From an uncultured delta proteobacterium (GTDB lineage Bacteria > Desulfobacterota > Binatia > UBA9968): 64,000 nucleotides of DNA. A model generated the notes under the pieces. It worked only from the letters and a program-made list of their open reading frames with translations, had not been told where the DNA came from and ran no database searches. Numbering within the stretch: position 1 is the stretch's first letter; the number at the start of each line of letters is the position of its first letter. The position numbers were made by a program, and so were the translations under genes. Location of the stretch: the NCBI GenBank assembly GCA_963755715.1, contig CAVWLW010000033.1, positions 32,001 through 96,000 of the forward strand, read 5' to 3'. Positions 13,184 through 39,091 of this stretch are shown here, one piece after another.

Positions 13184-14343
13184 ATGAAATTCTCAATCTT
13201 CATGATGCCGCTGCATCATCCGACAGAAAATCCGTCGCTGGCGTTCGATCGCGATATCTCGCTGATCCACTATGCGGAAGAGCTTGGCTATGACGAGTTC
13301 TTTATCGGCGAGCATCACTCCGGCGGTTGGGAAACCATGCCCGCGCCGGAAATGGCTCTGGCCAAAGCATCGGCGCATGCCCACCGCATTCGCCTTGGCA
13401 CGTCGGTCATCAGCGTGCCGTTTCATCATCCGTTTCACGTCGCCGAGCGGATGGCGTTTCTCGATCATCTCACGAAGGGCCGCGCTATTCTCGGCGTCGG
13501 CCCCTGCGCTCTGGTCACGGACAAGAATCTTTTCGGCCTCGCTACTGAAAAGCTCTACCCGATGATGGCTGAGTCGGTGGATATCATCGTACGCTTGCTC
13601 GAATCGCCCGAGCCGATCGACTACGACGGTCAGTACTGGAAGATCCATCAAATGCGCTTGCAGCTCCGTTCCTACCAACAGCCGCGCATGCCGCTCGCGA
13701 TCGCGTCGTCGGGGAATCCGGTGAGCCTCGAACTGGCCGGCAAGTACGGCATGCTGTTTCTGTCGCCGGCGGGGAAAAATAAGAGAAACAATCAAACCAA
13801 GGCGGAACAATGGAATGACGTCGAAGCGTATCGCCAGCGAAGTCACGGCACGCAAACTTCGCGCGACAATTGGCGCATCGCAACCTGCGTGTATCTCGCC
13901 GACAGCCGGGAAGAGCGTGGCGCGATGTCGAGGAGAATGTCGCGCGCGACATGCAGTATTTTTTCGCCATCGGTCTGAAAGCTCCTTACGAGGCGTACCC
14001 TGGACAGCCGGCGCAAGAAATCACGCCGCGTTCCGGCGCCGACCGGCGCGACTGGATTATCGGCACGCCGGACGACGCGATCGCGCAGATCGAACGCATG
14101 CAGACGGAAACCGGCGGCTTCGGCGGGCTTATGTTGACCACACATGAGTGGGCGAGCACGGAAAAGCTGCGGCACTCTTATGAGCTTTTCGCGCGCTACG
14201 TCATGCCGCACTTTCGCGGCCATACTCAAGGATACCGCGACGAGTGGCAGCGCATTCAGCAAGCAGTCACGAACGGCGGCAGTAAACTCACTCACACCGA
14301 TCAGCCGAGCGATCTGTCGAGTAAAGCTGGCGCGAGGTCATAA
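13184..14343 (+). CDS. LLM-class flavin-dependent monooxygenase (limonene monooxygenase-like), frameshift near 13912
   Basis: FFIGEHHSGGWE, IRLGTSV, DHLTKGR; continues in another frame WIIGTPDD...SYELFARYVMPHF. Confidence 0.85.
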
Positions 14344-14381: not shown

Positions 14382-14729
14382 CTACTGGCGGGAATTGAGT
14401 TGTTGGATGTCGTCTGCCGCCATCCTCCGTCTGGCGATTGCTCGCGCTATTTCGATTCTTTTCTCAGCGATGTAGGCAAGATGCTCCGTTTCAACAACGT
14501 CGTTCTCTGTTGTCCATACACGCTCGGCTTGATCGAGCGTTAACCGCGCCCTATCCAGTGCTACTCCGGCGCGTCTGACTAGTTCGCGGTCTTGCCGCGC
14601 GCGATCGTAGTCGTCGCGCGCCCGCTGCAACGCTGGATTGCTTACGGCGCCGCAACCCAACGATAAAATCGCCAGCGATAAGAGCACCGCGCCAAGGCAC
14701 CTGGGATCGAGAAAGACATTGGGCTTCAT
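14382..14729 (-). CDS. DUF4398-domain lipoprotein
   Basis: Lipobox LSLGC; helical EHLAYIAEKRIEIA motif. Confidence 0.7.
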   Translation of the reverse strand: MKPNVFLDPRCLGAVLLSLAILSLGCGAVSNPALQRARDDYDRARQDRELVRRAGVALDRARLTLDQAERVWTTENDVVETEHLAYIAEKRIEIARAIARRRMAADDIQQLNSRQ

Positions 14730-14732
14730 AAA

Positions 14733-15182
14733 CTACTCCTTGGTGGAAACGGGTGATGATGGCAGCCCTGTAGCGCGTTCGCTTTCGGACCGAAACGGGT
14801 CGAGCCGGCGCCGCAGATCGTCCGCCGCCCGGCGGGTAATTTCCGCTTCGGCCTTGGCCGCTGCGAGCTCGGCCTCGACTTGAGCGGTTTCGGCGAGCCG
14901 ACGCGCGTCGTCGTATTTTTTGGCGGCCATCGCCTTTTTAGACGCTTCGAGCTTCTCTCTGGCGCTTTGTAAATCCATCGGCGCGAGCTCATCAGCCCGC
15001 GCCTCGCTCGCCGCGCGCACGTCCAATTCCGCTTGGGACAAGATCCCGGTTGGTGGTTTGGCGCTGCTGCAGCCGATATTTTCAAAAACGAATAAGATCA
15101 ACAAAGACGGAAGAATTCCGACGCGAAAGGATTTTTTCTGCCGCCGCGTCAGGTCACGGTTCGGATCGGAGATCGCGCGCAT
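14733..15182 (-). CDS. DUF4398-domain lipoprotein
   Basis: IGC lipobox-like; ADELAPMDLQSAREKL...ARRLAETAQVEAELA. Confidence 0.75.
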   Translation of the reverse strand: MRAISDPNRDLTRRQKKSFRVGILPSLLILFVFENIGCSSAKPPTGILSQAELDVRAASEARADELAPMDLQSAREKLEASKKAMAAKKYDDARRLAETAQVEAELAAAKAEAEITRRAADDLRRRLDPFRSESERATGLPSSPVSTKE

Positions 15183-16900: not shown

Positions 16901-18358
16901 ATGAACGATCTTCACTTTATCGACACCACCGTGCGCGACGGGCAGTTGAGCCTTTGGGCGCTCGGCATGAAAACCGGCGCGATGCTCGCTATCGCCGAGC
17001 AGATGGACCGGTGCGGCTTCGAGTCCATGGAGTTCTTTGGCTTTGCCGGCTACATCAAGATGGTTCGCGAGCACAAAGAAAATCCTTGGGACTGGATGGG
17101 ATTGGGCGCGAAGAAGTTTCGCCGCACGCGGCTGCGCTACCATGGCGGGCTTGCCACCGGCTTCGAGAAAATACCGCGCTCGGTGCGATTGCTGATGATC
17201 GAGCGCGTGGTGGCGCATGGCATTACGCTCACGCGCTCCTCGGATCCGTGGAACGACTACGAAGCCGCGGCGCGAGAGATCGAGGCGCTGAAAAAGCTCG
17301 GCATGGACGTGGTCATCAACATCATCTATTCGGTATCGCCGCGCCACACCGATGCATACTACGCCGAGCGCGCGCGCCAAGCCGCGGCGATCCAGCCTTA
17401 CCGGATTTGCTTCAAGGACGTGGGCGGGTTGCTGACTCCCGACCGCGCCCGCACGCTGATCCCGCTGATCCAACAAAACATCGGCGCCGTGCCGCTCGAG
17501 TTTCACGCCCACTGCAACAACGGCATGGCGCCGTTCAACTATCTCGAGGCGATCAAGCTCGGCGTCGACACCCTGCACACGGCGATACCGCCGCTGGCCA
17601 ACGGTTCGTCGCAGCCGTCGATTTTTAACATCGCCGCCAACGCCCGCGCGCTCGGCTTTAACCCGCTCGTCGATCTCGAAGCGATCAAGCCGGTTGAACA
17701 GCATTTCACTTACATCGCCAAGCGCGAAGGCCACCCGTCTGGCGCGCAGCGCGAATACGATCACGCGCAGTACTTGCATCAGGTGCCCGGCGGCATGATC
17801 TCCAACTTGCGCCATCAGCTGCGCACGATGGGTAGGGAAAATCGCTTGCAGGAAACTTTAGAGGAAGCGGGGCGGGTGCGCGCTGAGTTCGGCTATCCGA
17901 TCATGGTGACGCCGCTAGCGCAGTTCGTCGGCAGCCAGGCGGCGATCAACATCATTACCGGCGAGCGCTACAAGGAGGTGACCGATCAATCGATTCAGTA
18001 CGCGCTTGGGCATTGGGGCAAAGAAGCGCCGGCGGTGATGGATGAAAATATTAAAGACAAGATTCTCAATCGTCCGCGCGCCGACGATTGGCGCAAATGG
18101 TCGCCGCCGGATCTCTCGCTGCACCAAGTGCGGCAAAAATTTGGCGCGCCGGGTGTGTCGGATGAAGAATTGGTTTTGCGCGTGATCGCCGGCGAGGCTG
18201 CCGTCCAAGCGATGCTCGCGGCCGGCGCGCCCAGAGAATATCTCAGTGCGACACAACCCTTGATCAAATTAATCGGCGAGCTTGCAAAGCGCAAAGATTG
18301 TAATCAGGTTTACGTCCGAAAAGGCGAGCTGGTGCTTTGCTTGGAGAAAGAAAGCTAG
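16901..18358 (+). CDS. Carboxyltransferase (pyruvate carboxylase B / OadA-like) without biotinyl domain
   Basis: DTTVRDGQ, FKDVGGLL, FHAHCNNG, HQVPGGMISNL, GYPIMVTPLAQFVG; no EAMK biotin motif. Confidence 0.85.
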   Translation: MNDLHFIDTTVRDGQLSLWALGMKTGAMLAIAEQMDRCGFESMEFFGFAGYIKMVREHKENPWDWMGLGAKKFRRTRLRYHGGLATGFEKIPRSVRLLMIERVVAHGITLTRSSDPWNDYEAAAREIEALKKLGMDVVINIIYSVSPRHTDAYYAERARQAAAIQPYRICFKDVGGLLTPDRARTLIPLIQQNIGAVPLEFHAHCNNGMAPFNYLEAIKLGVDTLHTAIPPLANGSSQPSIFNIAANARALGFNPLVDLEAIKPVEQHFTYIAKREGHPSGAQREYDHAQYLHQVPGGMISNLRHQLRTMGRENRLQETLEEAGRVRAEFGYPIMVTPLAQFVGSQAAINIITGERYKEVTDQSIQYALGHWGKEAPAVMDENIKDKILNRPRADDWRKWSPPDLSLHQVRQKFGAPGVSDEELVLRVIAGEAAVQAMLAAGAPREYLSATQPLIKLIGELAKRKDCNQVYVRKGELVLCLEKES

Positions 18359-18456: not shown

Positions 18457-20113
18457 CTAGTCTAAAGTTTCCAATTTCAAAACCGACGCGCCGTGGTTGC
18501 TGCCGACCCAGAACGTTACCGGCGAAGTATTGTTATCCACGAATACTCGGCGGATGTTGGTCTCCCGCGGCAACAGATAGTCGGTGAACTGGCTGGTCTT
18601 GGGGTCGAGGCGCGTGACCCGGTCGGTCCACATGGAGCCGGCCCAAACTTCACCGTTTTTATCCGGCACGACGTGGTAGGGCGCGCTCCAGGGGATCGGC
18701 ACCTTCCATTCCTGGATTTTCCCCGACTTCGGATCGAGCATGCCGATGCCATTGGCGCCGTATTCCGCGAACCAGAGACGATCCTGCGCATCGAATCGGC
18801 CGCGCCGCGGTCGGGAGCCTTGTGTGATCGTCGAGAAAACTTTGAACTCTTTGGTCTTGGCATCGATACGGCCGATGTTGTTGGCGCCAAACTCGAGCAA
18901 GTAGAGATTGTTCTCACTGTCCGACGGAATGCCGTAGGCGTTGATCGAGCGACCGGCGCCGGGAATCTGAAACTCGCCGAGATTTTCGTATTGTCCTGTG
19001 GCGAGATCGAGCCGATAGATGGCATGGGTGTCCTGATTGTTCGTCCAGACTTTGCCGTCCACGTGAGAATTCGCCGGGCTCACCATCGATTGCTGGGTGT
19101 GATCGCCCTGCCATTCCTTTGGCACCGGGTAAACCTGAAACTTTTCCGTCTTGCGGTCGAACTTGGCGATGCCGCCCTGATACATCAATGACACCCAAAC
19201 ATTTTGTTCCTTATCCAGCTGGAGATCGAGCGTCCCGAGGGGAAATCCCTTTTTCAGCACCGGGATCGGAAATTCCGTTACTTCGCCGGTCTTTGGATTC
19301 AGGCGGCCGATAAACTGTTCGCCGAAATCCGAGTACCAGACAAGCCCTTCGGAGTCTAGGACGACGTCGTGCGGCATCGCCAACTTCCGCGGCAGATCAT
19401 ATTCAGTGATGATCGTGTGCGTGGCTTTGCCCTTGGGCCGCGGCAAAGTTTTGAGCGGAAAACTCTGCTTCGAGTTGTAGCTCGCGTTCACGTTGGCAAG
19501 CCAGGCGCCGAGTTCCATCGGATCGACGCCGCGGGTGCGGTCGCGCTGCACGCTCCCGACAGTCACTTGCGGCCGGAGCGGACTGCTGCCCGGCGCATAA
19601 GTCGACATGCGGCGAAATACTTGCACCCACTCTTCCGCGCTTTTGTTGGCCTTTACGATACGTTCAATGGTGTGGCAGCCGTTACAACTTAGGAGAAAAT
19701 TTTTCTGCTGTTCCGTGCCGGGTATGCTCAGCAGCCATTCAGCGTCGGTTAGTTGCGCCGACGGATTTTCGGCCGCTTTGAGTTTGAGATTGGCGGTGGC
19801 GGTTTTGCCGGCGATCACGTCGACGGTCTTGGGACCGTCGAGATCGTAACCGACCGCACGAATTTTCAGAGCGTAATGGCCGGGCTCAAGTTTTTCACCG
19901 GGAAAGGCAAATCGTCCTTTGGCGTCGCTGACGACATTGACCGTCATCGTCGAGCCGTCTTTTTTGGCGCCGACGACGACGCCTTCCATCAAGCTTTTCT
20001 TTTTGCGAGCTGACTTGGCCGGTCAGTGCTATGGCGCCGTTGGCGTGAACATCGGTGGCGAGTAGTAACGAAAAGACTACCAGGGCGACGCTGGCGAGAA
20101 ATTTGTTCCGCAT
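18457..20113 (-). CDS. Exported carboxypeptidase-regulatory-like domain + c-type heme + Vgb-like beta-propeller protein (frameshift near 19990)
   Basis: Signal MRNKFLASVALV; SDAKGRF...GHY.LKIRAVGY beta-sandwich; CNGCH; repeated G.VW...IGRLDPKTG propeller blades. Confidence 0.8.
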
Positions 20114-20345: not shown

Positions 20346-22507
20346 ATGAAAAAAACAAAATGGCTATTTGTAAGTTCGATGATAAGCGTGGTTGCGATAT
20401 TCTTGATGCTCTCTCCATACCGGCTGAGCAGCCAACAAGGTGCAGTGGTGCGCGTCGACGGTGACGACGTCGGAGGCGTGGTCACCAGCGTGAACGGTCC
20501 GGAGGCCGGCGTCTGGGTGATCGCTGAGACAACGGATCTACCGACCAAGTTTGCCAAGATCGTGGTCACCGATGATCAGGGCCGTTACTTGATTCCCGAC
20601 CTGCCGAAAGCAAATTACAATATTTGGGTGCGTGGTTACGGGCTTGTCGACTCACCGAAAGTTCGGACGGCGCCTGGGAAGACGCTCAATCTCAAAGCGG
20701 TGATTGCATCGACCGATGCCGCGGCGGCTGAATATTATCCGGCAATCTACTGGTATTCGATGCTCAAGATTCCCGACAAGAGCGAATTTCCCGGCACCGG
20801 GGAAAAAGGCAACGGCATGCCGGAAAAACTAAAACATCAAGCTCAGTGGCTCGACGTAGTAAAAACCAATGGCTGCAACACTTGCCATCAACTGGGGAAC
20901 AAAGCGACACGAACAATTGCCAAACAGTTGGGTGAATTCAAATCGTCATCCGACGCCTGGCAGCGGCGCATTCTTTCCGGTCAGGCCATGACGTCGATGC
21001 TCAACGCCGTTGACAGAATCGATTCGAACCGCGCTATGGCCCTCTTCGGCGATTGGACGGACCGCATCGCTGCCGGCGAAGTGCCGAAGTCAAAACCACC
21101 GCGGCCCCAGGGTGTAGAGCGCAACGTCGTCATCAACGTGTGGGATTGGAGCAATCCCAAGGCTTATCTTCACGACGAGATTTCCACCGACAAGCGCAAT
21201 CCGACGGTCAATGCCAACGGGCCGATTTACGGCTCGACGGAATTGAGCACGGATCTTGTGCCGGTGCTTGACCCGCAACATCACAAAGCTTGGGAGATGA
21301 AACATCCCGTGCGCGATCCGAACACGCCGTCCGCGAAGACGGACCCGCTCGCGCCGTCGCCTTACTGGGGCGCTGAGCCGATCTGGGATAGCCAATCGAA
21401 CCAACACAATCCGATGATGGATGAAAAGGCGCGCGTGTGGTTTACGGCGAGAGTCCGTCCGCCGGAGAATCCCGATTTTTGCAAGAAGGGATCGAGCCAT
21501 CCGTCGGCTAAGGTTTTCCCCATCAACAGCGCGAACCGGCATCTATCGATGTACGACCCGAAAACAAAAAAGTTCACCTTGATCAGCACCTGCTTTTCTA
21601 CGCACCATCTGGTTTTTGCGGAAGATGCCGATCACACGCTCTGGACCAGCGCCGGTGGTCCCGCCAGCGGCGTCGTCGGTTGGCTGAACCGCAAGATGTT
21701 CGAAGAAACCGGCGACGAGCAGAAGTCGCAAGGCTGGACACCGCTGATTCTCGACACCAACGGCAACGGCAAGCGCGACGAATGGGTCGAGCCAAATCAG
21801 GCCGTCGATCCGACGAAAGACAAGCGCGTCGCGGCGGCTTTTACGGTATCGCCGTGAGCCCGGTGGACGGTACGGTGTGGGGATCTTCCCAGGGATTTCC
21901 CAGCTCCATCGTGCGACTCAACCCAGGGCCAAATCCTTCGGAAACCGCGCTCGCTGAATTATACGAGGTGCCGCTCGACGCCGGCGCCTACGGCATCCGT
22001 GGGATGGACATCGACCGCAACGGTGTGGTTTGGTCTTCGCTGTCGAGCGGCCATCTGGCGAGCTTTGACCGGCGCAAGTGCAAAGTGCTAAACGGCCCAA
22101 CAGCCACTGGCAAGCACTGTCCCGAAGGCTGGACGCTGCACACGCTGCCAGGACCCAACTTCGAGAGTTTGAAAGAGCCGGGCAGCGCGGAGGCAAGCTA
22201 TTACACCTGGGTGGATCAGTTCGATACTTTCGGTCTGGGCAAAGACGTGCCGATCGCCACCGGCAATCTGAACGATTCTTTGTTGGCTCTGGTGGATGGA
22301 AAGTTCGTCAACCTACGCGTGCCGTATCCTTTGGGATTTTACGCCAAGTGGATGGACGGCAGAATCGACGACCCGAAGGGCGGCTGGAAGGGCAGAGGCC
22401 TGTGGGCGACCACCGGCACGCGGACGCCATTCCACATGGAAGGCGGCAAGGGCACGCGGCCAAAGGTCGTGAAGTTCCAGTTGAGGCCCGATCCATTGGC
22501 GAAATAA
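20346..22507 (+). CDS. Exported mono-heme cytochrome c / beta-propeller protein, paralog 1 (frameshift near 21840)
   Basis: Signal peptide; GPEAGVWVIAET..VTDDQGRY; CNTCH; YLHD, QHN, THH; DTNGNGKRD; ends RPDPLAK. Confidence 0.82.
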
Positions 22508-22595
22508 GTTGGAACTGAACGAACGTCGCTGGACGCGGCTGTGAGTAAATGGTCTGGCGCATGTAAAGTCCTGACGGACGACTAAGGAGATTGCG

Positions 22596-24754
22596 ATGAA
22601 AAACACCAAGACGTTGGGTTTGATGTTGCTGGCTTCCGGTATTGTCGCGCTTATCGCGGCATGCGCGTCTCAGATGGGCGGCGAGCCAAGCACAGGCGCG
22701 GCCGTGCGTATAGATAACGACGACATTGGTGGCGTGGTCACCAGCGCCAATGGACCCGAGGCCGGTGTCTGGGTGATTGCCGAGACCCGCGATCTACCGA
22801 CTCGGTTCGCCAGGATGGTCGTGACCGACGACCAGGGCCGCTACGTCGATACCTGATCTGCCGAATGGGACTTACGACCTGTGGGTTCGTGGGTACGGGC
22901 TGGTCGATTCGCCAAAAGTGAAAGCAACTCCTGGCAAAATCGAAAACCTCAAGGCGGTCATCGCGCCGAACGAAGCCGCTGCGGCTCAATATTATCCGTC
23001 GATCTATTGGTACTCGATGATGAAGATTCCCGACAAGAGCGAGTTCGGGGGCAAGGGGAAAGTTCCCGCTGATATGACGCAGAATGAATACCTGAACTTG
23101 GTGAAGTCAAACGGCTGCGCTAACTGCCATGCGATCGGCAATCGCGCCATGCGCACCTTTCCCGACAACGTGCCGTTCCCCCTGGGCAAGTTCGCAACCT
23201 CCGAGGAAGCCTGGTTTCGCCGCATTCAGTCGGGACAGGGCGGCCATCCCATGTTCGAGACTACGGTCAAGCAACTCGGCACCGCGAATTTGCGTTATCT
23301 TGCCGACTGGACGGACCGCATCGCTAAAGGCGAGCTGCCTCACACGAAGCCAACGCGCCCGCAGGGTGTCGAGCGCAATATCGTCGTCACGACCTGGGAT
23401 TGGCTCGACGACAAACATTACCTGCATGACTTAATCGCGTCTGATCGGCGCTTTCCGAGCGTTAACGCCTACGGCCCTGTGTACGGTTCGACAGAGCTGA
23501 GCATCGATGTCATTCCGATCCTCGATCCCAAAACGAACAGCACCAAAAACTTTCCGGCACCCGTGCGCGACGCCGATACACCTATGGCGATGCAAGAGGG
23601 ACCGATGCAGCCGTCGCCCTATTGGGACAACGAGCGGATTTGGACTAGCAAGGCGAGCAATCACAACGGCATGTTCGACCGCAAAGGCCGCGTCTGGTTC
23701 GCCGCGGCGGTCCGCGGTCCGAACAATCCTGCTTTCTGCCAAAAAGGCTCGGACCATCCTTCGGCGAAAGCGTTTCCGGTTGAGCGCTCGAACCGTCAGT
23801 TTTCGATGCTAGATCCGAAGACCATGAAGTACACCTTCGTCGAGACCTGCTTTAATACACATCATTTGCAATTCGACGCCAATGACGTGCTGTGGGCCAG
23901 CACCGGCGGTGCGAATTCCCCCGTCATCGGCTGGCTCGACATGAAGATTTTCGACGAGACCGGTGACGCGGCCAAAGCGCAGGGCTGGACGCCCTTGATC
24001 CTCGACACCAACGGCAACGGCAAGCGCGACGAATACGTGGAGCCCAATCAGCCGGTGGACCCGACGAAAGACAAACGTATCGTGGCCGGATTCTATGCCA
24101 TCATGCCGAACCCGGCCGACGGCTCCGTCTGGGGTGCCGTACGGACTTTCCCTGGCTCGATCGTGCGCATCGCTCCGGGGTCGAAGCCCTCGGAGACGGC
24201 GCTCTCGGAGATCTACAATATCCCGCTGCCCGGCTTTGGTATCCGCGGGGCCGACATCGACAAGCAAGGCGTCGTCTGGGCGTCGCTCGCAAGCGGCCAT
24301 TTGGCGAGTTTCGATCGAAGAAAATGCAAAGGACCGTTGAATGGTCCCAAGGCGACGGGCGATCACTGCCCCGAGGGCTGGTCGTTCCACCAATATCCCG
24401 GTCCTGGCTTTCAGGGCATAGGCGAGAACAGCGCCGAATCGAGCTATTACTCATGGGTGGACCAGCACAACACGTTCGGACTCGGCGAAGACGTGCCGAT
24501 GTCCACCGGCAACTTACACAACGGCCTGATCGCGTTGAAAGACGGCAAGATGATCCTGCTGCGGGTGCCCTATCCCCTTGGCTTCTACGCCAAAGGCTTC
24601 GACGGACGCATCGACGATCCGAAAGCCGGTTGGAAGGGACGCGGATTGTGGAGCTCGAGTGGCGACCGCGCGCCTTGGCTGATGGAGAACGGCAAGAGGA
24701 TCCAAGCCGCTAGCCGTGAATTTCCAGATGCGCCCCGATCCGTTGGCGAAATGA
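22596..24754 (+). CDS. Mono-heme cytochrome c / beta-propeller lipoprotein, paralog 2 (frameshifts near 22850 and 24695)
   Basis: Lipobox LIAAC; CANCH; YLHD, NHN, THH; colinear with paralogs 1 and 3. Confidence 0.8.
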
Positions 24755-24838
24755 CTCGAGCGCGAACGAAGGAGATGTTGCTCCCGATAGTCCGGCGTAG
24801 GCAGAAACTCTGATGAATCATCGGTTAAGGAGGCGGCC

Positions 24839-27001
24839 ATGAAAAACACGAAAGTGTTGGGTTTGATATTGATCCTTTGTTGCGTCGCCGCGTGGCTGAC
24901 GGTGTATCCGGTGCAGCTCGGCAGTCAACAAGACGCAGGTATACCCATCGATAATGACGACATCGGCGGCGTGGTCACGAGTGCGAAGGGGCCGGAAGCT
25001 GGCGTCTGGGTGATCGCCGAGACCAACGATCTTCCCACCAGATTTGCCAGGATGGTCGTCACGGACGATCAAGGACGCTACGTGATTCCGGAGTTGCCCA
25101 AAGCCAATTACGACATCTGGGTGCGCGGTTACGGATTGGTGGATTCACCGAAAGTGAAAAGCGCTCCCGGCAAGCTTCTCAACCTCAAAGCGGTGGTGGC
25201 GCCAAACGAAGCCGCGGCGGCGCAATATTATCCGGCAATTTATTGGTATTCGATGCTCAAGATTCCTGAAGCCAACGAGTTCGGCGGCAAGGGTGAGATC
25301 CCGGCGAAGCTGACTCAGACCGAATGGCTCAACACCATGAAGAACAACGGCTGCATCGGCTGCCATCAGCTCGGTCAGCTCTCCACGCGCACGTTTCCGA
25401 AGAGCGTCCCGCATCCGATCCACATGGGGACGTCCCAAGAATCGTGGTTCCGCCGCATCCAGTCCGGTCAATCCGGCGAGCAAATGTTTGACGTTATGGT
25501 CAAGCAAATGGGCGGCGCGCCGATTCGCTATTTCGCCGACTGGACGGACCGGATCGCCAAGGGCGAGCTACCGCAGACAAAACCTGAGCGGCCCCAAGGG
25601 ATCGAGCGCAATATTGTCGTCACGACCTGGGATTGGCTCAACGAAAAAAAATATCTGCATGACTTGATAGCCTCGGATCGACGTTACCCGACGGTCAACG
25701 CCTATGGACCGCTCTACGGCTCCACCGAATACAGCACCGACGTGATTCCAGTGCTGGATCCGGTCAAAAACACTGTGTCCAGCATCGTCGCGCCGGTGCG
25801 CGATGACAATATTCCGGAGGCGCTCGGGCCTGGGCATGCGGCGAGCGACAAACTCATGCAGCCGTCGCCTTACTGGGGCGGCGAGAAGCTCTGGGATACC
25901 AAGGCGAACAACCATAACGGCATGATCGATCGCAAAGGCCGCGTTTGGTTTGCGGCAAGATTTCGCGACGCGAATAATCCCGATTTTTGCAAGAAAGGCT
26001 CCGGCCATCCGTCGGCCAGAGTCTTTCCGTTGGAGCGGACCAATCGCCAGCTCACAGTCCTCGATCCCAAGACCGGACAATACTCGTACGTCGATACTTG
26101 TTTCGGCAGCCATCATTTGCAATTCGGCTACGACGCCAGTGAAACGTTATGGACCAGCGGCGGCGGGCAGGTGGTAGGATGGGTCAACACCAAAATGTTC
26201 GATGAGACCGGTGATATCGCAAAGTCGCAAGGCTGGACGCCGATGATTCTCGACACCAACGGCAATGGCAAGCGCGACGACTACGTAGAGCCGAATCAGC
26301 CGGTGGACCCAACTAAGGACAAGCGCATTGTCGCCGGCTTTTATGCGGTGATGCCCAATCCGGTGGACGGCTCGGTCTGGGGCACGTTCCGCAGTAATCC
26401 GGGCGCAGTCGTGCGCGTCGCTCCGGGAAGCAACCCTTCCGAAACTGCTCTCACCGAGATCTATAACGTACCAATGCCCGGTTTTGGGCCGCGCGGTGGT
26501 GATATCGATCGCCAGGGCGTCGTCTGGGTGTCCTTGGCGAGCGGCCACCTCGGTAGCTTCGATCGCAGGAAATGCAAAGGCCCGCTCAACGGACCAAAAG
26601 CGACCGGCGATCATTGCCCCGAGGGTTGGTCTTTTTATAAATATCCCGGACCGGGCTTCAAAGGTCTCGGCGATAATAGCGCCGAGTCGAGCTACTACAC
26701 CTGGGTCGATCAGCACAACACGTTCGGCCTCGGCGAAGACGTGCCCATGTCCACCGGCAACTTGAACGACGGCCTGATCGCCATGAAAGACGGCAAGATG
26801 ATCGTGCTGCGCGTGCCCTACCCGATGGGCTTTTACGCGAAGGGCTTCGACGGGCGCATCGACGATCCTAAGGCTGGATGGAAAGGGCGCGGCCTGTGGA
26901 CCACGAGCGGCGACCGCGCGCCATGGTTGAAAGAAGGCGGTAAAGGCGCCAAGCCGATCGTTGTGCACTTCCAGATTCGCCCCGATCCGCTGGCGAAGTA
27001 A
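24839..27001 (+). CDS. Exported mono-heme cytochrome c / beta-propeller protein, paralog 3 (intact, 720 aa)
   Basis: Signal peptide; CIGCH; YLHD, NHN, SHH; DTNGNGKRD; AGGAGG RBS. Confidence 0.88.
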   Translation: MKNTKVLGLILILCCVAAWLTVYPVQLGSQQDAGIPIDNDDIGGVVTSAKGPEAGVWVIAETNDLPTRFARMVVTDDQGRYVIPELPKANYDIWVRGYGLVDSPKVKSAPGKLLNLKAVVAPNEAAAAQYYPAIYWYSMLKIPEANEFGGKGEIPAKLTQTEWLNTMKNNGCIGCHQLGQLSTRTFPKSVPHPIHMGTSQESWFRRIQSGQSGEQMFDVMVKQMGGAPIRYFADWTDRIAKGELPQTKPERPQGIERNIVVTTWDWLNEKKYLHDLIASDRRYPTVNAYGPLYGSTEYSTDVIPVLDPVKNTVSSIVAPVRDDNIPEALGPGHAASDKLMQPSPYWGGEKLWDTKANNHNGMIDRKGRVWFAARFRDANNPDFCKKGSGHPSARVFPLERTNRQLTVLDPKTGQYSYVDTCFGSHHLQFGYDASETLWTSGGGQVVGWVNTKMFDETGDIAKSQGWTPMILDTNGNGKRDDYVEPNQPVDPTKDKRIVAGFYAVMPNPVDGSVWGTFRSNPGAVVRVAPGSNPSETALTEIYNVPMPGFGPRGGDIDRQGVVWVSLASGHLGSFDRRKCKGPLNGPKATGDHCPEGWSFYKYPGPGFKGLGDNSAESSYYTWVDQHNTFGLGEDVPMSTGNLNDGLIAMKDGKMIVLRVPYPMGFYAKGFDGRIDDPKAGWKGRGLWTTSGDRAPWLKEGGKGAKPIVVHFQIRPDPLAK

Positions 27002-27011
27002 TTCATTACGA

Positions 27012-27053
27012 TCCGGCGGAACCGTTGGTCGCGGTTCCGCCGGAATGTTTTTT
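27012..27053 (+). terminator. Rho-independent terminator
   Basis: TCCGGCGGAACCG / CGGTTCCGCCGGA 13-bp stem followed by T tract. Confidence 0.85.
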
Positions 27054-28060
27054 TACCTCACTCCCGCCGCGTTCAAGTAATTCAGATCGACAAAGCGTTC
27101 AGGCTCCGGCAGAGGCTTTTTGATCGTGTCGGCTTCGCCCATGAAGGTGATGACTTGGGCCAAACCTTTGAGGTTGATCTCGGCTTGTTTTGGCAGGACG
27201 TTACGCTCGGGCTCAAAAAATAGCTTGAGCGTCTGCTCGGCGATCTCGCTTGACGAGTCGGTTGCTTCGACAATTATTTTCACGATGGTTTTGCGATTGG
27301 CCGGATCGCGAATGAATTTCAGCGCGGCGCCGAGGCCGCGCACATAGCGGACGAGCGCTTCTTTATTCGCGCTTGCCCATGAACGGCGCGCCGCCGTGAC
27401 GGTATAGACGAACTCGGGTACGGCTTCGGTGGACAGTCCGAGCAGCCGATTGCCGTCTTTCACCGCTAGCAGATCCTGCGGTTGGCCGAGCGGCACGGCG
27501 TCGCATTCGCCGCGCCGCAAGCATGTGTAGCGCGCCGGCGTTCCCTCGATGATCCTGACGCGGAAATCCTCATTGCGCAGACCGTGGAGGGCGAGCAGCT
27601 TGCGTGTCGAGAGGGTGATTGAGCCGGCTTCATCGGCGAGCCCGATGAGTTTGCCCTTGAGGTCGGCGAAGCTTTTTATTTCGGGCCTCGCCACTAGACT
27701 GTAAATAGGATTGTTGAACTCGGCGGCAATCGCCCTCGCGTCGGAGCCCGCGAGTACAGCCCGGATCAAAAACGCCGTCGCGATATGCGTCACGTCGGCG
27801 CTGCCGTCGTTGAGCGCGTCGAGCATTTTGTCCGAGCCGCCGGGGAGCGGCACGACCACGTGGAAATCCAGCTTCTCGCGGCGAAAGAAACCCTCCCGCT
27901 CGGCAACGGTTACCGGCAATGAAAAAATACTGCGTATCGCGGAGTAGCTTTGCGCGTAGCGCAACGATAGCGTTTGCGCGGCGGCGAATTGGCTGCCCGC
28001 GCAAAGAAGCGTGCTTACGGTGATAAAAAGTGAAAGCGGCAAGCGAGCTCGCGAGCGCAT
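27053..28060 (-). CDS. ABC-type substrate-binding protein, NMT1/THI5/SsuA-like
   Basis: Signal peptide; AEREGFFRRE.L, IKSFADLKGK, ERFVDLNYL. Confidence 0.85.
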   Translation of the reverse strand: MRSRARLPLSLFITVSTLLCAGSQFAAAQTLSLRYAQSYSAIRSIFSLPVTVAEREGFFRREKLDFHVVVPLPGGSDKMLDALNDGSADVTHIATAFLIRAVLAGSDARAIAAEFNNPIYSLVARPEIKSFADLKGKLIGLADEAGSITLSTRKLLALHGLRNEDFRVRIIEGTPARYTCLRRGECDAVPLGQPQDLLAVKDGNRLLGLSTEAVPEFVYTVTAARRSWASANKEALVRYVRGLGAALKFIRDPANRKTIVKIIVEATDSSSEIAEQTLKLFFEPERNVLPKQAEINLKGLAQVITFMGEADTIKKPLPEPERFVDLNYLNAAGVR

Positions 28061-28114
28061 GATGAAATCGGTTTAGCGCGCCGCAGGAATTTCAAATCGA
28101 TTCATCGAAACGAT

Positions 28115-28513
28115 CTACTTCGCGCCGACTTGTTGCATGGTGCACTCGACTTCGACGGTGGCAGCTTTTTTATCGCGCGGTGGGCGCGTGAGCGTGCGAA
28201 TTTGCTTGTAGCCGTCCTTGCTGCACGAAATGGAGACACGGTTCGCGGTGATGTTCTTGCCGAAGCCCGGCAGTTTATAGACTCCGGTGGCGTCGGTGCG
28301 GGCAACGACGGATCCCAGGCCTTTGATCTCAGCCGTGACTTTGGCGTCGCGAATCGTTTTACCGGTGTTGTCCTTTACGAAGCCGAAGAAAGCCAAGCCG
28401 TCGGCTTCATCGTGAATATCGGGCGCATCGCCGCCCGCCCAGACGGGAGAAACAAACAACAGACTCACTGCCATGCCGAGCGCGAGATGAGTTTTAAGGT
28501 GCTGCATCGTCAT
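28115..28513 (-). CDS. Small exported carboxypeptidase-regulatory-like (transthyretin-like beta-sandwich) protein
   Basis: Signal ending VWA; GFVKDNTGK.IRDAKV, TDATGVY; two Cys; start trimmed to MTMQH. Confidence 0.75.
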   Translation of the reverse strand: MTMQHLKTHLALGMAVSLLFVSPVWAGGDAPDIHDEADGLAFFGFVKDNTGKTIRDAKVTAEIKGLGSVVARTDATGVYKLPGFGKNITANRVSISCSKDGYKQIRTLTRPPRDKKAATVEVECTMQQVGAK

Positions 28514-28539
28514 TCGCCCTTCGTTCAGAACCGCCTTAT

Positions 28540-28878
28540 CTAGCGCATAAAAAAGCCGCTCAACATATAGCTGAAAACAACCATCGACGCTATCGGTACG
28601 GCCCAGGACCAACCGGACCAGAGCCGTTGCGCGAGCCGTTCGGGCATGAATCGAGCCAGAGTCGCCGCCGCGAAGGCGACAATGGCGGCTGTCGCTATCC
28701 AGCCGTACCAATACATGGCGGGACCGTCGCGCGGCGGCTGTACCAGCGGGCCGAATTCTTCGAGCGCCGGGTGATAAGTGAACAGCGCATAATTATTTTG
28801 CACCGCGATTAGATAACTGACTGAGTAAACTACGGTGAACACGACGGCACTGGAATGGAACGAGCGCGACGCGATCAT
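28540..28878 (-). CDS. Hypothetical membrane protein (3 TM)
   Basis: Hydrophobic helices; loop LFTYHP..GPAMYWYGW; ATGA overlap with the upstream gene. Confidence 0.75.
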   Translation of the reverse strand: MIASRSFHSSAVVFTVVYSVSYLIAVQNNYALFTYHPALEEFGPLVQPPRDGPAMYWYGWIATAAIVAFAAATLARFMPERLAQRLWSGWSWAVPIASMVVFSYMLSGFFMR

Positions 28879-29339
28879 GATCCGAATCCTCTGATGTTGT
28901 TAAGAATATGTCCGACCAAAAAGCTCCACCACACGATAAACGCAAAGGTTGCGGTGATGACGGCGCGGGCGCGGGTCTCGCTTTCGGCCAGCGGTTGGCG
29001 CCAGAAGGACCAGTAAGCGGGGAGCATGCCCAGCCCCAGCGCGACGAAATGCTCTTTCAATTCGAATGCACCGTTGGCCTTCCACAAATCCAACTGCTCG
29101 AGCACGACGCGAACAGCCATGCGATATTCGCCGTAGATGATGCCTCCAAGGATCGCCGTGGCGACGTACAGAAAAATGATCGCCGAAACGTAGGACGGCG
29201 CGGACACGGCGCGCACGCGACCGACGAATGAGTCGGCGGTTTTGCGCGCCGGCACCAGGACACTGATGGCCTGGTGTGTGATCGAGCCGAGCAGCGCCAC
29301 CGCCAACAGACCGTGCACGATGAGCAAAAAGGTCGTCAT
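28875..29339 (-). CDS. Hypothetical 4-TM membrane protein with four His (possible b-type cytochrome)
   Basis: H9 and H22 in TM1, KEHF, VGHILNN; AGGAG RBS. Confidence 0.75.
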   Translation of the reverse strand: MTTFLLIVHGLLAVALLGSITHQAISVLVPARKTADSFVGRVRAVSAPSYVSAIIFLYVATAILGGIIYGEYRMAVRVVLEQLDLWKANGAFELKEHFVALGLGMLPAYWSFWRQPLAESETRARAVITATFAFIVWWSFLVGHILNNIRGFGS

Positions 29340-31108: not shown

Positions 31109-33059
31109 TTACGCTGACGCGCGGGTCAGTTGGTTCGATTCGCTTATTTTCGGCGCCGGCAAAGAGCTATCGTCGGCAGTGAGCTGAACCAATTGCGATA
31201 ATTGGTCGCGCGCTTCGCTCAATGTAGCGACCACCCGGTCGGCACCGACCGAAGTCAAAGAAGCCTGCGCATATTCCAAACTTCCGGAAAAATTCCAGCG
31301 GCCGACGAGGATTTTGACGTCGGCGCAACGGGCGCGGATTCTCTTGCAAAGATAACGGGCTTGCACCAGACCGCCGGGCGCGATCGCGCCGATACAAACC
31401 AGCCGCGGCTGCTTCTCTTCGACCAGCGCAACCACTTCGGCGGCGAGCATATTTGGCGAGGCGACGTCGATCGGATAACGGCGTGAATCGAGAAGCTTTT
31501 CGAGCGCAAGCAAGGCGATTTCGTCGGCCTCTCCGTCGGCGGGGAAAGCGAATATTTGAAAAACCTGGTCTGGCGGAGGAGCGGCCGGTTCGACCGATTC
31601 GGTCTTCTTTTCCGGCGATTTTTTAGCCGCGGCTTGTCGGTCGTCGAGATCTTCCAAGATTGCCCGGGTGCCATCGTGAACCGATTTCTGGTCTTTCTCG
31701 CTCAACTGATCACGGCGCCGGTCGCTCTTGCCCCGGCTCAAAGCCGGTATGAAAACGTCGTCGCAAAGCTCTGCGATCGAGTGGGTTTGCAAATATTCCT
31801 CGACGATTTCTTCGCCTTCGTCCTGATCGCTTGCCAACATGCGCTGATAGAAGTTGACGTAGGTTTCCAATGCCGGCGCATCGCTCAGCAGCACCGTCAC
31901 GAAGGCCATCTCTGGAACATATTTGGCGAACACCACCAAGCACACCGTGAGCGGCGTCGCCAAGACGAGCCCGACCGGTCCCCATAGCCAGGTCCAGAAT
32001 GCCGCCATGACCAGCACGGCTATCTCGGATACGCCGGCGCTTTCGCCGTATAAGCGCGGCTCCAAGAAAAAATTGATAATCAGCTCGATGGCGAGGAAGG
32101 AGCCGACGATAATCAGAGATGTCATCCAGCCGGGAAAATAGGCGAGGCTCAGAGCCGTCGGCAGCAAGGCGGCCGACCCATGGCCCGACATAGGGAATAA
32201 AGCGCAGCATCGTTGCCAAAAAACCCCAGAGCAGCGCATAAGGAACGTCGAGGAAAAAAAGTATGACGCCGATGGCAAGGCCGAAACCGCTGTTGATCAG
32301 CAGCTGTGCGAGCAGATAATGGCTGATTTTCTGCCCTGCTTCTTCCATCGCCTTGGTTGTAATCGTCAGACGACCGTAGCCCGAAACCCGGATCAGGCGG
32401 TTGCGTAGCTCTTCCCGTTGAATGAGCATGAAGATAACGAGCACGATGGCCAGCACCGCGCCAGCAAGGCGTTCGACGATCGGACCGGTAGCCAGCGGTA
32501 TCGGCCAAAATACCGAGTGCTGGTCGGAGGCAACCACCACCGGCCGCGGCGCTGGTTCTCGCGCCGCCGTTTCCGGTTTGTTCAGTTCTTTCTTGACTTC
32601 ATCGACGGTCTGTTCGACTTTTTCCAGTGCGCCGCCTCTTTTGAAGTCGCGCAAATCGGCAACCTTTTGCTGAATGTTTTTTCGATATTGCGGCAGGTCG
32701 TTGGCCAAAGCGGCAATCTGCCACGCCACGATCCAGCCCACGCTGAGTAGGATCGAGAAGGAGAAAACCGTCGCGATGACGACCGAAACAACCCGCCCCA
32801 AACGCAAGCGCTCGAGCGCGCTTACGACCGGGTTCAGCACGAAAGTGAGCAGCAGGGCGACGGCGATGGGCACCAATACTTGCTGCGCCCAATACAGAAT
32901 GGCGACGATCGTCACTACAATAGGCAGAAAAATCCAACCCGGCATTTTGGCGCTGGAGCGAGGGAGCAGCGTCTGCTTTGTCGGGACCGAGGGTGGCGGC
33001 GTTGCTTCTTCCGGCGGAGTGTCCGCGCTTGAGCTCTTGGTGAAAAGTGTCGACAACAT
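31109..33059 (-). CDS. AI-2E family transporter with C-terminal soluble (B12-binding-like) domain, frameshift near 32185
   Basis: LVPIAVALLLTFVLNP, LRFIPYVG, EPRLYGES.GVS, WTWLWGPVGL.LATPLTVCL. Confidence 0.85.
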
Positions 33060-38000: not shown

Positions 38001-39091
38001 GGCGCAAGGACGAGTTCTTGGCGATGCTGTCGCACGAACTGCGCAATCCGCTCGCGCCAATGACCGGCGCCTTGGAGCTCATGAAGAGCGCCAGTGACCG
38101 GGACACCGAGCAGCGCGCGCTTCACGTGCTCGAGCGCCAGGTCGGCCAGATCGTTCGCATGGTGGATGATCTGCTCGACATCTCGCGCATGGCGGTAGGA
38201 AAATTGAGCTTGCGTATGACCCGCGCCGACTTGGCCACGGTAGTCGAGTTTGCGCTGGAAACCTGCCGGCCGATGATCAATGCCGCGGCACATCGGTTGA
38301 CGGTTTCGTTGCCGCCCGAGCCGCTTTATCTGAATGCCGACGTGGCGAGGCTGGCGCAGGTGCTCGCCAACCTTTTGAACAACGCTATCAAGTACACCCC
38401 ATCGGGAGGCGAAATCCGTCTGAGCGCGTCGCGCGAAGACGATGACGCCGTCATTCGAGTGCAAGACAACGGTATGGGCATCGCCCCCGCTGATTTGTCG
38501 CGCATCTTCGATATTTTTACCCAAGGCGACCCCCGGAGCCGGCCCTTGGGCGGTCTAGGCATCGGTTTGAGCCTGGTGAAGCAATTGGTCGAAATGCACG
38601 GCGGTACGGTCTCAGCGCTGAGCGGCGGTTTGGGAAAGGGGAGTGAATTCATCGTGCGCGTGCCGCTGTCGGCCAATCAGGACGAGCAAGTCACCGCGCA
38701 CGAAGAAGCTAAAATCGCCAAGGCGGTCCCGCGGCGCATTCTCGTCGTTGACGACAACCAACACGCGGCGGAAATATTGGCCAAGTGGCTAAACCTGGAG
38801 GGGCATTCGGTGACGACGGCTTTAGACGGCGCCAGCGCGATCGAAAAAGCGCTCGTGTTCAAGCCGGAGGTTGTTTGCCTCGATATCAGTTTGCCCGATA
38901 TCAGCGGTTACGACGTTGCCGCGCGCCTGCGCCGCGATCTGCCGGACCTACTCATCATAGCGATCTCCGGCTGGCTGCAGGAAAGCGAGAGCCAGAACGC
39001 TAAAGAAATCATCAATCACTATCTGTTGAAGCCGGTCGATTTTAAAGATCTCCGCGCCAAGATCGCCGGCACAAGAGCGCCCGACGAGTGA
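35007..39091 (+). CDS. CheB-CheR-PAS-histidine kinase-receiver fusion (frameshift near 36480)
   Basis: GASAGG/VH/GSDG (CheB); GCATGEEAYS (CheR); EELKASNEELQ coiled coil; SHELRNPL; GGLGIGL; VVDDN..LDISLP (REC). Confidence 0.9.

What the first reader, a model, noticed from the sequence alone, without database searches (positions are those of the whole stretch)
20346..27001. Tandem triplet of exported mono-heme / His-rich beta-propeller proteins
Seen in all three roughly 720-aa paralogs: CxxCH (CNTCH, CANCH, CIGCH); SGQxxxxM (candidate distal Met); His motifs YLHD, [QN]HN, [TS]HHL, HPSA and SGHL; Cys candidates for disulfides (FC.KGS with TCF; RRKCK with HCPEGW); and a Ca-binding-like DTNGNGKRD loop. 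One is a lipoprotein and two have Sec-type signals. Known: cytochrome c plus propeller is the layout of cd1 nitrite reductase and quinohemoproteins, and His-lined propellers bind Cu in NosZ; I do not see the signatures of any of these. Inference: an uncharacterised periplasmic metallo-oxidoreductase family with an internal electron-transfer heme, expanded for different substrates.
Basis: partly seen in the sequence, partly recalled or inferred. Interest (0 to 1): 0.85.

Follow-up and report, generated by a model that had tools for sequence, protein, structure and literature searches.

The report
Unstudied haem-propeller periplasmic enzyme triplet
Three neighbouring genes of an uncultured soil bacterium each encode a predicted exported protein joining a single-haem cytochrome c domain to a seven-bladed propeller with a conserved pocket that matched no studied enzyme in my searches; they belong to a very large family that likely oxidises an unknown small acidic molecule at a histidine-bound metal and likely passes the electrons to respiration.

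Summary
The triplet is real. Genes 1 and 2 are frameshifted as assembled, but each break is a one-base indel that short-read contigs from four studies lack, so these are assembly errors. Each protein has a Sec or lipoprotein signal, a transthyretin-like sandwich, a His/Met-type haem c domain and a seven-bladed propeller (AlphaFold pLDDT 95). The nearest solved structure is Vgb lyase (Z 23.8, 12–13% identity), but Vgb's catalytic residues are not kept. In 56 full-length relatives (40–68% identical), CxxCH, M216, H274-D275, H426, Y502, Y619, K/R668 and E699 never vary; H359, H425 and R552 rarely do. All but E699 lie at the starts of the inner blade strands: histidines on three adjacent blades, a Tyr/Arg/Lys anion pocket opposite. 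The protein is not His-rich (1.8%), and the HPSA histidine is not conserved. The family has at least 8000 clusters, no obligatory partner gene, and pqqB in only 6 of 39 carriers. Best reading: a periplasmic metal-dependent dehydrogenase with a built-in cytochrome, laid out like thiocyanate dehydrogenase plus its acceptor; metal and substrate are untested. Nine paper searches found no description; this scan noted the wider family before on other DNA.

The parts
20346..22507 (+). Paralog 1 (about 720 aa, Sec-type leader); one-base assembly indel near 21837-21841; own subfamily (81-90% to orthologs in L027, L028, L029)
22596..24754 (+). Paralog 2 (predicted lipoprotein, lipobox IAAC, Cys24); one-base assembly indels at 22849 and 24696; own subfamily (80-86% orthologs)
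24839..27001 (+). Paralog 3, intact 720 aa: signal 1-30, transthyretin/CarboxypepD-like sandwich about 40-120, helical haem c domain about 125-242, seven-bladed propeller about 253-715
20874..20888 (+). Haem c motif CNTCH of paralog 1
23116..23130 (+). Haem c motif CANCH of paralog 2 (domain matches PF13442 at E 6e-4)
25352..25486 (+). Haem c motif CIGCH (C172, C175, H176) and invariant M216, the inferred distal ligand, of paralog 3
25658..26116 (+). Histidine side of the predicted pocket in paralog 3: H274-D275 (blade 1, 25658-25663), H359-N360 (blade 2, 25913-25918), H425-H426 (blade 3, 26111-26116); includes C384 and C421, a predicted disulfide
26342..26935 (+). Anion-binding side of the predicted pocket in paralog 3: Y502 (blade 4), R552 (blade 5), Y619 (blade 6), K668 (blade 7, K or R), E699; includes C579 and C593, a predicted disulfide
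26252..26278 (+). DTNGNGKRD loop; consensus D-x-N-G-[DN]-G fits a Dx[DN]xDG Ca-binding loop (motif name recalled)
   Evidence: D472 53/53, N474 52/56, D/N476 53/56, G477 55/56
27012..27054 (+). 14-bp hairpin with T-run right after paralog 3: likely terminator
   Evidence: pattern match only
18457..20113 (-). Divergent distant homolog (short class, 553 aa; sandwich + CNGCH haem domain + Vgb-like propeller); one-base assembly indel at 19993-19996
27053..29339 (-). Convergent four-gene unit and optional partner: four-His membrane protein (28875-29339, candidate di-haem cytochrome b), small membrane protein (28540-28878), small secreted sandwich protein (28115-28711), NMT1-type binding protein (27053-28060)

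Best explanation
Each gene encodes a predicted periplasmic enzyme that likely oxidises a small anionic substrate at a histidine-bound metal in the mouth of a seven-bladed propeller and likely drains the electrons through its own His/Met haem c. Shown: export signals, haem motif, invariance of the residues, intact genes, family size. Predicted: the fold and the residues' places at the inner-strand starts. Inferred steps: (1) Sec export, then haem attachment by the genome's cytochrome c maturation genes and formation of two disulfides. (2) H274, H359, H425, H426 and D275 bind one or two metal ions, copper favoured over iron because one-electron steps are needed and no organic cofactor is evident. 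(3) Y502, R552, Y619 and K/R668 on the opposite blades hold the substrate's carboxylate or other oxyanion. (4) Electrons pass one at a time to the haem, then to a small cytochrome c or the four-His membrane protein, and on to respiration. (5) The three paralogs are old subfamilies that likely differ in substrate preference or anchoring. The substrate is not identified. Confidence is about 0.8 for 'periplasmic haem-c redox enzyme with its active site in the propeller mouth', 0.45 for the metal-dependent dehydrogenase mechanism, and about 0.3 for copper specifically.
For: Model pLDDT 95.3, pTM 0.94; propeller at residues 253-715, best match Vgb Z 23.8, rmsd 2.6, 287-292 aligned, 12-13% identity. 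H274, H359, H425/H426, Y502, R552, Y619 and K668 fall at or just before the first strand of seven successive blades (DSSP). In 56 full-length relatives, CxxCH, M216, H274, D275, H426, Y502, Y619, K/R668 and E699 are 56/56; H359 53/56; R552 50/56; H425 49/56. The 150 best 50%-level representatives agree: H274 84/91, D275 87/92, H426 89/97, Y619 64/67, K/R668 61/63, M216 76/76. Propeller metalloenzymes bind their metal with His from inner strands on the top face (PMC8916777 passage); NosZ uses an adjacent His pair, His79/His80 (PMC13685413 passage). TcDH is a seven-bladed Cu propeller dehydrogenase that passes electrons to a monohaem cytochrome c (PMC9456337 passages). The genome has cytochrome c assembly genes. 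In L135 a relative is followed on the same strand by a cytochrome c, the four-His membrane protein and a cytochrome c-PQQ dehydrogenase fusion. An organic cofactor is unlikely: pqqB in 6 of 39 carriers and 0 of 17 of this family; no PQQ alcohol dehydrogenase in 5 of 5; no covalent-flavin motif by regex.
Against: Distances between the His residues, or to the haem, could not be measured because the model's coordinates are not returned; convergence is inferred from strand positions. The homologous short class (hhalign 99.4%) keeps H-D, Y, R, Y, R but not the blade-2 and blade-3 His, so the chemistry common to both classes may not need a His-bound metal. H359 and H425 vary in distant members (66/84 and 73/97). 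No copper chaperone or transporter was among 60 hand-picked neighbours or the recurring neighbour clusters of 79 and 80 loci, whereas TcDH genes sit beside copper-transport genes and use Tat (PMC6504805 passages). No neighbour points to a substrate. The membrane partner was found in only 12 of 48 genomes with one query. M216 lies in a predicted helix and its role as a ligand is not shown. Expression was not tested.
Confidence: 0.45

Rival explanations
1. The propeller mouth binds a second, non-covalent haem. Y502, R552, Y619 and K/R668 would hold its propionates, H274 would be the axial ligand and the other His would shape a distal pocket, giving cd1-like chemistry on nitrite, NO, hydroxylamine or peroxide with haem c as the electron relay.
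For: The H, Y, R, Y, R/K set is shared at 5 of 7 blades with the short class, which has Arg-Arg doublets and a single His (blades 4-7 matched by motif order, not by the hhalign alignment). His plus Arg plus Tyr at inner-strand starts is how cd1 holds haem d1 (recalled). The cytochrome-plus-propeller layout is that of cd1.
Against: Seven blades rather than cd1's eight. No PF02239 hit for the protein. The genome has only two partial PF02239 matches, not examined. I recall no seven-bladed propeller with a haem in its mouth. Invariant D275, H426 and E699 look more like metal ligands.
Confidence: 0.2
2. The propeller is a non-redox enzyme (lyase or hydrolase using Zn, Mg or Ca plus His, Tyr and Arg, like Vgb, PAL or CylK) or a binding protein, and the haem domain is a redox switch or structural cap.
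For: The closest fold is the lyase Vgb, 3 Z units or more above the next match. Language-model look-alikes are NHL and SGL propellers, all under 0.9 and so leads only. CylK uses Arg and Tyr at a propeller-cap interface without redox chemistry (PMC8916777 passages). Three His plus Tyr and Arg is the PAL site (recalled). A repurposed non-redox cytochrome c exists (PMC8833165, search listing and start of abstract).
Against: CxxCH and a candidate distal Met are invariant in both classes, which fits a six-coordinate electron-transfer haem. One relative shares a strand with cytochromes c and a four-His membrane protein. Vgb's catalytic His position is Lys or Arg here (inferred register).
Confidence: 0.17
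3. It is a quinohaemoprotein: PQQ or another polyanionic quinone bound by the Tyr/Arg/Lys ring, with Ca on D275 and a His as base.
For: An Arg/Lys/Tyr ring suits a tricarboxylate. The blade-2 sequence NHNG resembles the His motif of six-bladed PQQ sugar dehydrogenases (recalled). PQQ-dehydrogenase genes lie in 4 of 80 distant loci.
Against: pqqB in 6 of 39 carrier genomes and 0 of 17 of this family. No PqqC over the cut-off in this genome. No PQQ alcohol dehydrogenase in 5 of 5 family genomes. PQQ propellers described have six or eight blades (10.64898/2026.07.10.737718, abstract). No PQQ Pfam or NCBIfam hit for the triplet.
Confidence: 0.08
4. The site is metal-dependent but runs as a reductase, taking electrons from the respiratory chain through haem c to reduce a small oxyanion or N-oxide.
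For: The anatomy does not fix the direction of electron flow; NosZ and cd1 use the same layout as reductases.
Against: Within the wider phylum and class the gene is confined almost wholly to one family (2 of 151 and 9 of 121 genomes), whose named relatives are Candidatus Binatia, described as aerobic (PMC8262859 abstract and passages). Multi-copy subfamilies with pocket changes fit organic-substrate diversity better. No nos or nir accessory gene turned up among the neighbours examined.
Confidence: 0.1

Closest known systems
Virginiamycin B (streptogramin B) lyase Vgb, PDB 2z2n/2z2o/2z2p/2qc5, Pfam PF24684
   Same: Seven-bladed propeller, top structural match (Z 23.8, rmsd 2.6, 287-292 aligned). 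The divergent short-class neighbour scores above the PF24684 cut-off.
   Different: 12-13% identity; about 460 rather than about 295 propeller residues; extra signal, sandwich and haem domains. Vgb's site is on blades 6-7 (PMC8916777); here those positions are Tyr and Lys/Arg and the His sit on blades 1-3. No PF24684 hit for the triplet.
Thiocyanate dehydrogenase TcDH with cytochrome c552 (works-like model)
   Same: Periplasmic seven-bladed propeller with a His-bound metal site in the central tunnel, passing electrons to a monohaem cytochrome c (PMC9456337 passages).
   Different: TcDH has three Cu, a separate cytochrome, a Tat signal and flanking copper-transport genes. Here the cytochrome is fused, export is Sec, only four His are conserved, half the ring is Tyr/Arg/Lys, and there is no sequence match.
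Nitrous-oxide reductase NosZ
   Same: Seven-bladed propeller; adjacent His-His pair among top-face ligands (PMC13685413).
   Different: CuZ needs seven His; four are conserved here. No CuA domain and no nos accessory genes seen.
Cytochrome cd1 nitrite reductase NirS and type II quinohaemoprotein alcohol dehydrogenases
   Same: A cytochrome c domain fused to a catalytic propeller, exported to the periplasm.
   Different: Both have eight blades and an organic cofactor (haem d1 or PQQ); no family hit here, and most carriers lack pqqB.
PAL lyase domain, carotenoid cleavage dioxygenase, CylK
   Same: His-bound metal (PAL recalled; CCD in PMC8916777) and/or Tyr/Arg anion pocket (CylK) on a capped top face.
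   Different: None has a haem c domain; PAL has six blades (recalled); none appears among the 50 best structural matches.

Membership tests
Vgb lyase | Seven-bladed propeller | tested here: met
   Z 23.8, rmsd 2.6
Vgb lyase | Catalytic His270 and Mg site on blades 6-7 | tested here: not met
   Blade-7 motif E-P-H-G corresponds to Y-A-K-G; K/R in 56/56. Register inferred from the collinear structural range; no residue-level alignment was returned.
Vgb lyase | PF24684 / NF000022 score | tested here: not met
   No hit at E<=0.05 for the triplet proteins
TcDH | Seven-bladed periplasmic propeller with His at inner strands | tested here: met
TcDH | Tat signal and neighbouring copper-transport genes | tested here: not met
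   Sec or lipoprotein leaders, no RRxFL; no Cu genes among neighbours examined; feature from PMC6504805
TcDH | Sequence or structural kinship, three-copper ligand set | tested here: inconclusive
   No PDB sequence hit; not among the 50 listed structural matches; the paper with the ligand list was not held
TcDH | Bound copper and thiocyanate oxidation | not testable with these tools
   needs purified protein
NosZ | Seven His ligands of CuZ | tested here: not met
   Four conserved blade-start His; the others are Tyr, Arg, Tyr, Lys/Arg; feature from PMC13685413
NosZ | CuA domain | tested here: not met
   The chain ends with the propeller; no family hit
Cytochrome cd1 (NirS) | N-terminal haem c domain on a propeller | tested here: met
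   CxxCH 56/56; PF13442 E 6e-4 for paralog 2
Cytochrome cd1 (NirS) | Eight-bladed haem d1 domain (PF02239) | tested here: not met
   Seven blades; no PF02239 hit
PQQ quinohaemoproteins | Eight- or six-bladed PQQ propeller | tested here: not met
   Seven blades; no PQQ family hit
PQQ quinohaemoproteins | PQQ supply in the host | tested here: inconclusive
   pqqB in 6 of 39 carriers; scavenging is not excluded, though 0 of 5 family genomes have a PQQ alcohol dehydrogenase
PAL (amidating lyase) | Six-bladed NHL propeller with His3-Zn, Tyr, Arg (recalled) | tested here: not met
   Seven blades, no PF01436 hit; similar residue types are present; the structure paper was not held
Class I His/Met cytochrome c domain | CxxCH after an N-terminal helix, distal Met, C-terminal helix | tested here: inconclusive
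   Motif, helices and invariant Met present; Foldseek hits on the N-terminal model were all to the sandwich; Met ligation not shown

The most novel reading that the evidence does not exclude
This is a new class of copper-propeller dehydrogenase with a built-in cytochrome and no organic cofactor, among the commonest unstudied periplasmic enzymes of Binatia, Acidobacteriota, Rokubacteria and Alphaproteobacteria in soil. It oxidises an abundant organic acid or oxyanion at a His4/Asp copper site and feeds the quinone pool through an unrecognised four-histidine di-haem membrane cytochrome b encoded next to it.
Probability: 0.25. Interest if true: 0.85.

Novelty: new variant of a known kind. Interest (0 to 1): 0.62.

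Why it matters
The family is very large (at least 8000 clusters at 90% identity; 1574 representatives at 50% with E<=1e-30, many of them fragments). It is carried by major uncultured soil lineages, often in two or three adjacent copies (14 of 79 loci hold two or more). Databases call it 'hypothetical' or 'carboxypeptidase regulatory-like', and call its short sister class 'virginiamycin B lyase', which can inflate resistance-gene counts. Its pocket is invariant and matches no enzyme tested here, so it likely marks an undescribed periplasmic redox reaction in soil carbon, nitrogen or sulfur cycling. It can be tested directly: gene 3 is intact, and a cultured isolate, Microvirga ossetica V5/3m, has a 74% identical copy (WP_099514940.1).

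Tried and rejected
Pseudogenes or programmed frameshifts: rejected; short-read contigs of four studies lack the indels. Recent duplication: rejected; identities are 61-73% and each copy has closer orthologs elsewhere. Sequence search of the PDB: nothing for gene 3; the family profile hit only SdrD B-repeats through the sandwich (4 sequences). TcDH, NosZ, NirS, CCD and PAL were absent from the 50 listed rows of three structural searches; this does not exclude kinship. A VIA-align search of the N-terminal model never ran because the machine was busy, so the haem domain's nearest solved relative is open; Foldseek on that model listed only sandwich matches. A dedicated operon partner: not found. 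In 79 genome loci the window's neighbours recur in at most 11; in 80 metagenome loci no neighbour cluster exceeds 6; 60 neighbours picked by hand from 259 candidates gave scattered families. The upstream oadA-like gene (9 of 79) looks like synteny among close relatives. Promoter scan: 2 found against 2.4 expected. Atlas search: only unnamed clusters of the family at 0.98-0.99 and NHL/SGL leads under 0.9. Paper searches that found no description of the family. The primary Vgb, TcDH and PAL structure papers were not held; no supplements were read. No complex prediction was run because no binding claim is made.


Full report
OBSERVATION. The window is G000:C33:32001-96000 of a 7.4-Mb assembly. 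The best-scoring named relatives of these genes are mostly Candidatus Binatia or uncultured deltaproteobacteria, and runs that hold the region are soil and rhizosphere metagenomes. Three same-strand paralogs lie at 20346-22507, 22596-24754 and 24839-27001; they are the only close copies in the genome. Only gene 3 is an open 720-aa frame. Gene 1 shifts frame near 21837-21841, gene 2 near 22849 and 24696, and a divergent neighbour near 19993-19996. Contigs of four runs from four studies carry the compensating one-base difference at each place, so these are assembly errors. Gene 2 has a lipobox; genes 1 and 3, like most relatives, have Sec-type leaders by eye. A strong terminator-like hairpin follows gene 3. 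Read with X at the breaks, the copies are 60.9, 62.7 and 73.0% identical, and each falls in its own clade with 80-90% orthologs in other genomes (five loci left out as the window itself or duplicates). The triplet is therefore old. Positions 298 (Tyr or Leu), 692 (Asp or Thr) and 696 (Trp or Phe) differ between subfamilies.

FAMILY. Among 50%-level representatives, 6343 score E<=0.001 and 1574 E<=1e-30, many of them fragments. The gene is in 15 of 18 other genomes of the genus and 6 of 7 of the family, but 9 of 121 in the class and 2 of 151 in the phylum. One plasmid record has it: Microvirga ossetica, 74%. Annotation is empty: a sub-cut-off PF13620 hit, no NCBIfam family, no PDB sequence match. 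The divergent gene (553 aa intact, P0335) belongs to a shorter sister class that databases call 'virginiamycin B lyase'. The family profile finds it and two more in this genome (E 6e-14 to 1e-9), and the two profiles align at 99.4% probability with the blade-1 His-Asp in register.

ANATOMY. AlphaFold2 on a 126-sequence alignment gives pLDDT 95.3 and pTM 0.94 (model numbers are gene 3 numbers minus 30). Residues about 40-120 are a transthyretin-like sandwich as in carboxypeptidase D. About 125-242 is helical and carries CxxCH; the same stretch of paralog 2 matches cytochrome c family PF13442 at E 6e-4. Residues 253-715 form a seven-bladed propeller whose best match among 48,161 representatives is Vgb, Z 23.8 against 20.3 for the next, at 12% identity.

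CONSERVATION. To avoid circularity among close paralogs I used 56 full-length members (those over 620 aa among 74 family ORFs in 80 metagenome loci; 40-68% identical to gene 3). C172, C175, H176, M216, H274, D275, H426, Y502, Y619, K/R668 and E699 are 56/56; H359 53/56; R552 50/56; H425 49/56; H570 47/56; H390 22/52. C384 with C421, and C579 with C593, vanish together in the same three sequences, as disulfide pairs would. The 150 best representatives, counting only confidently aligned columns, agree. In the model's secondary structure, H274, H359, H425/H426, Y502, R552, Y619 and K668 sit at or just before the first strand of seven successive blades, while H390 is in an insertion and H570 starts a third strand. 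Those are the positions from which propeller metalloenzymes supply top-face His ligands (PMC8916777, passages). So the predicted mouth has His on three adjacent blades and Tyr-Arg-Tyr-Lys/Arg on the other four. I could not measure distances, since coordinates are not returned. The short class has His-Asp, Tyr, Arg-Arg, Tyr and Arg-Arg at the matching blades 1 and 4-7 but no His on blades 2-3 (blades 4-7 matched by motif order). The protein as a whole is not His-rich (13 of 720).

CONTEXT. No gene is an obligatory partner. No copper-handling or PQQ-synthesis gene was seen among the neighbours examined. pqqB is in 6 of 39 carrier genomes and none of 17 in this family; PQQ alcohol dehydrogenases are in 0 of 5; this genome has no PqqC above cut-off but has three cytochrome c assembly genes. 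A convergent four-gene unit follows the triplet. Its first gene (28875-29339) is a membrane protein with four His present in every aligned row that covers them (10, 11, 12 and 12 of 12 rows), two of them 13 apart on one hydrophobic stretch, which suggests a di-haem cytochrome b (inference; no Pfam hit). It was found in 12 of 48 genomes, 44 of which carry the long gene. In 11 loci holding it, a long-class gene was within the fetched stretch in 4, a short-class gene in 2 (one locus has both) and neither in 6, some cut by contig ends. In L135 the order on one strand is family gene, cytochrome c, this membrane protein, cytochrome c-PQQ dehydrogenase fusion. That is one locus, but it fits electron transfer.

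MECHANISM. Most likely (0.45) the protein is a self-contained periplasmic dehydrogenase: a metal held by H274, H359, H425, H426 and D275 activates a small anionic substrate clamped by Y502, R552, Y619 and K/R668, and electrons go one at a time to the His/Met haem and on to respiration. It would work like thiocyanate dehydrogenase fused to its cytochrome acceptor (PMC9456337, abstract and passages). Copper is my first guess (about 0.3 overall) because one-electron steps are needed and an adjacent His pair occurs among NosZ ligands (PMC13685413, passages). Against this, the short class lacks half of the His, H359 and H425 vary in distant members, and TcDH uses Tat and has copper-transport neighbours (PMC6504805, passages), which this family lacks. 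Rivals: a second haem in the mouth, cd1-like (0.2); a non-redox lyase, hydrolase or binding protein with a regulatory haem (0.17; CylK precedent, PMC8916777 passages); a metal-dependent reductase (0.1); a quinoprotein (0.08; 10.64898/2026.07.10.737718, abstract and outline only). That it is some periplasmic haem-c redox enzyme I put at about 0.8. Residue details for cd1, PAL and six-bladed PQQ enzymes are recalled, not from a call.

COMPARISON AND NOVELTY. It is not a member of Vgb, NosZ, NirS, TcDH or the PQQ quinohaemoproteins: each fails a tested defining feature (see membership table). The layout, cytochrome c plus catalytic propeller, is a known kind; the fold variant, the fused arrangement and the pocket are not described in anything my nine paper searches reached (subscription journals are mostly not covered). 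The Binatota genomics paper (PMC8262859, passages) reports XoxF-type PQQ enzymes and PQQ synthesis in orders Bin18 and Binatales; the passages I saw do not mention this family. Earlier notes of this scan describe the wider haem-propeller family on other genomes and reach the same broad reading; they are not independent support. They gave me the lead to the small membrane genes, which I then tested. Verdict: real, uncharacterised, widespread; new variant of a known kind; interest 0.62.

Noticed in passing
window 18457-20113 (-); G000:C72:2335-4032, C41:16456-18315, C76:10586-12653: Four members of the short sister class in this genome, auto-labelled virginiamycin B lyase; they carry CxxCH, and the three aligned keep a Met and the H-D/Y/RR/Y/RR set. 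The C76 copy has a monohaem cytochrome c gene directly upstream.
   Followed up: partly
window 28875-29339 (-): 154-aa membrane protein with no Pfam hit and four invariant His (HxxxxxxxxxxxxH, KEH, GH), a candidate unrecognised di-haem cytochrome b; single copy in the genome.
   Followed up: partly
L135:295-4933: Same-strand run: family gene, monohaem cytochrome c, four-His membrane protein, cytochrome c-PQQ dehydrogenase fusion.
   Followed up: partly
L160, L161, L164: A distant sub-branch lacks all four disulfide Cys and has His in place of R552 while keeping the other pocket residues; it may bridge the long and short classes.
   Followed up: no
window 16901-18358 (+): Stand-alone OadA/pyruvate-carboxylase-B-like carboxyltransferase, below equivalog cut-offs, found in 9 of 79 loci, upstream of the family gene in close relatives.
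   Followed up: no
window 13184-14343, 31109-33059, 35007-39091: Further genes appear split by frameshifts (luciferase-like monooxygenase and two others), consistent with indel errors across this assembly; not checked with reads.
   Followed up: no
G000 genome-wide: About 300 tblastn hits to the NMT1/SsuA-type binding protein and seven PqqC-like matches below the cut-off.
   Followed up: no
window 14382-15182 (-): Two adjacent DUF4398 proteins.
   Followed up: no
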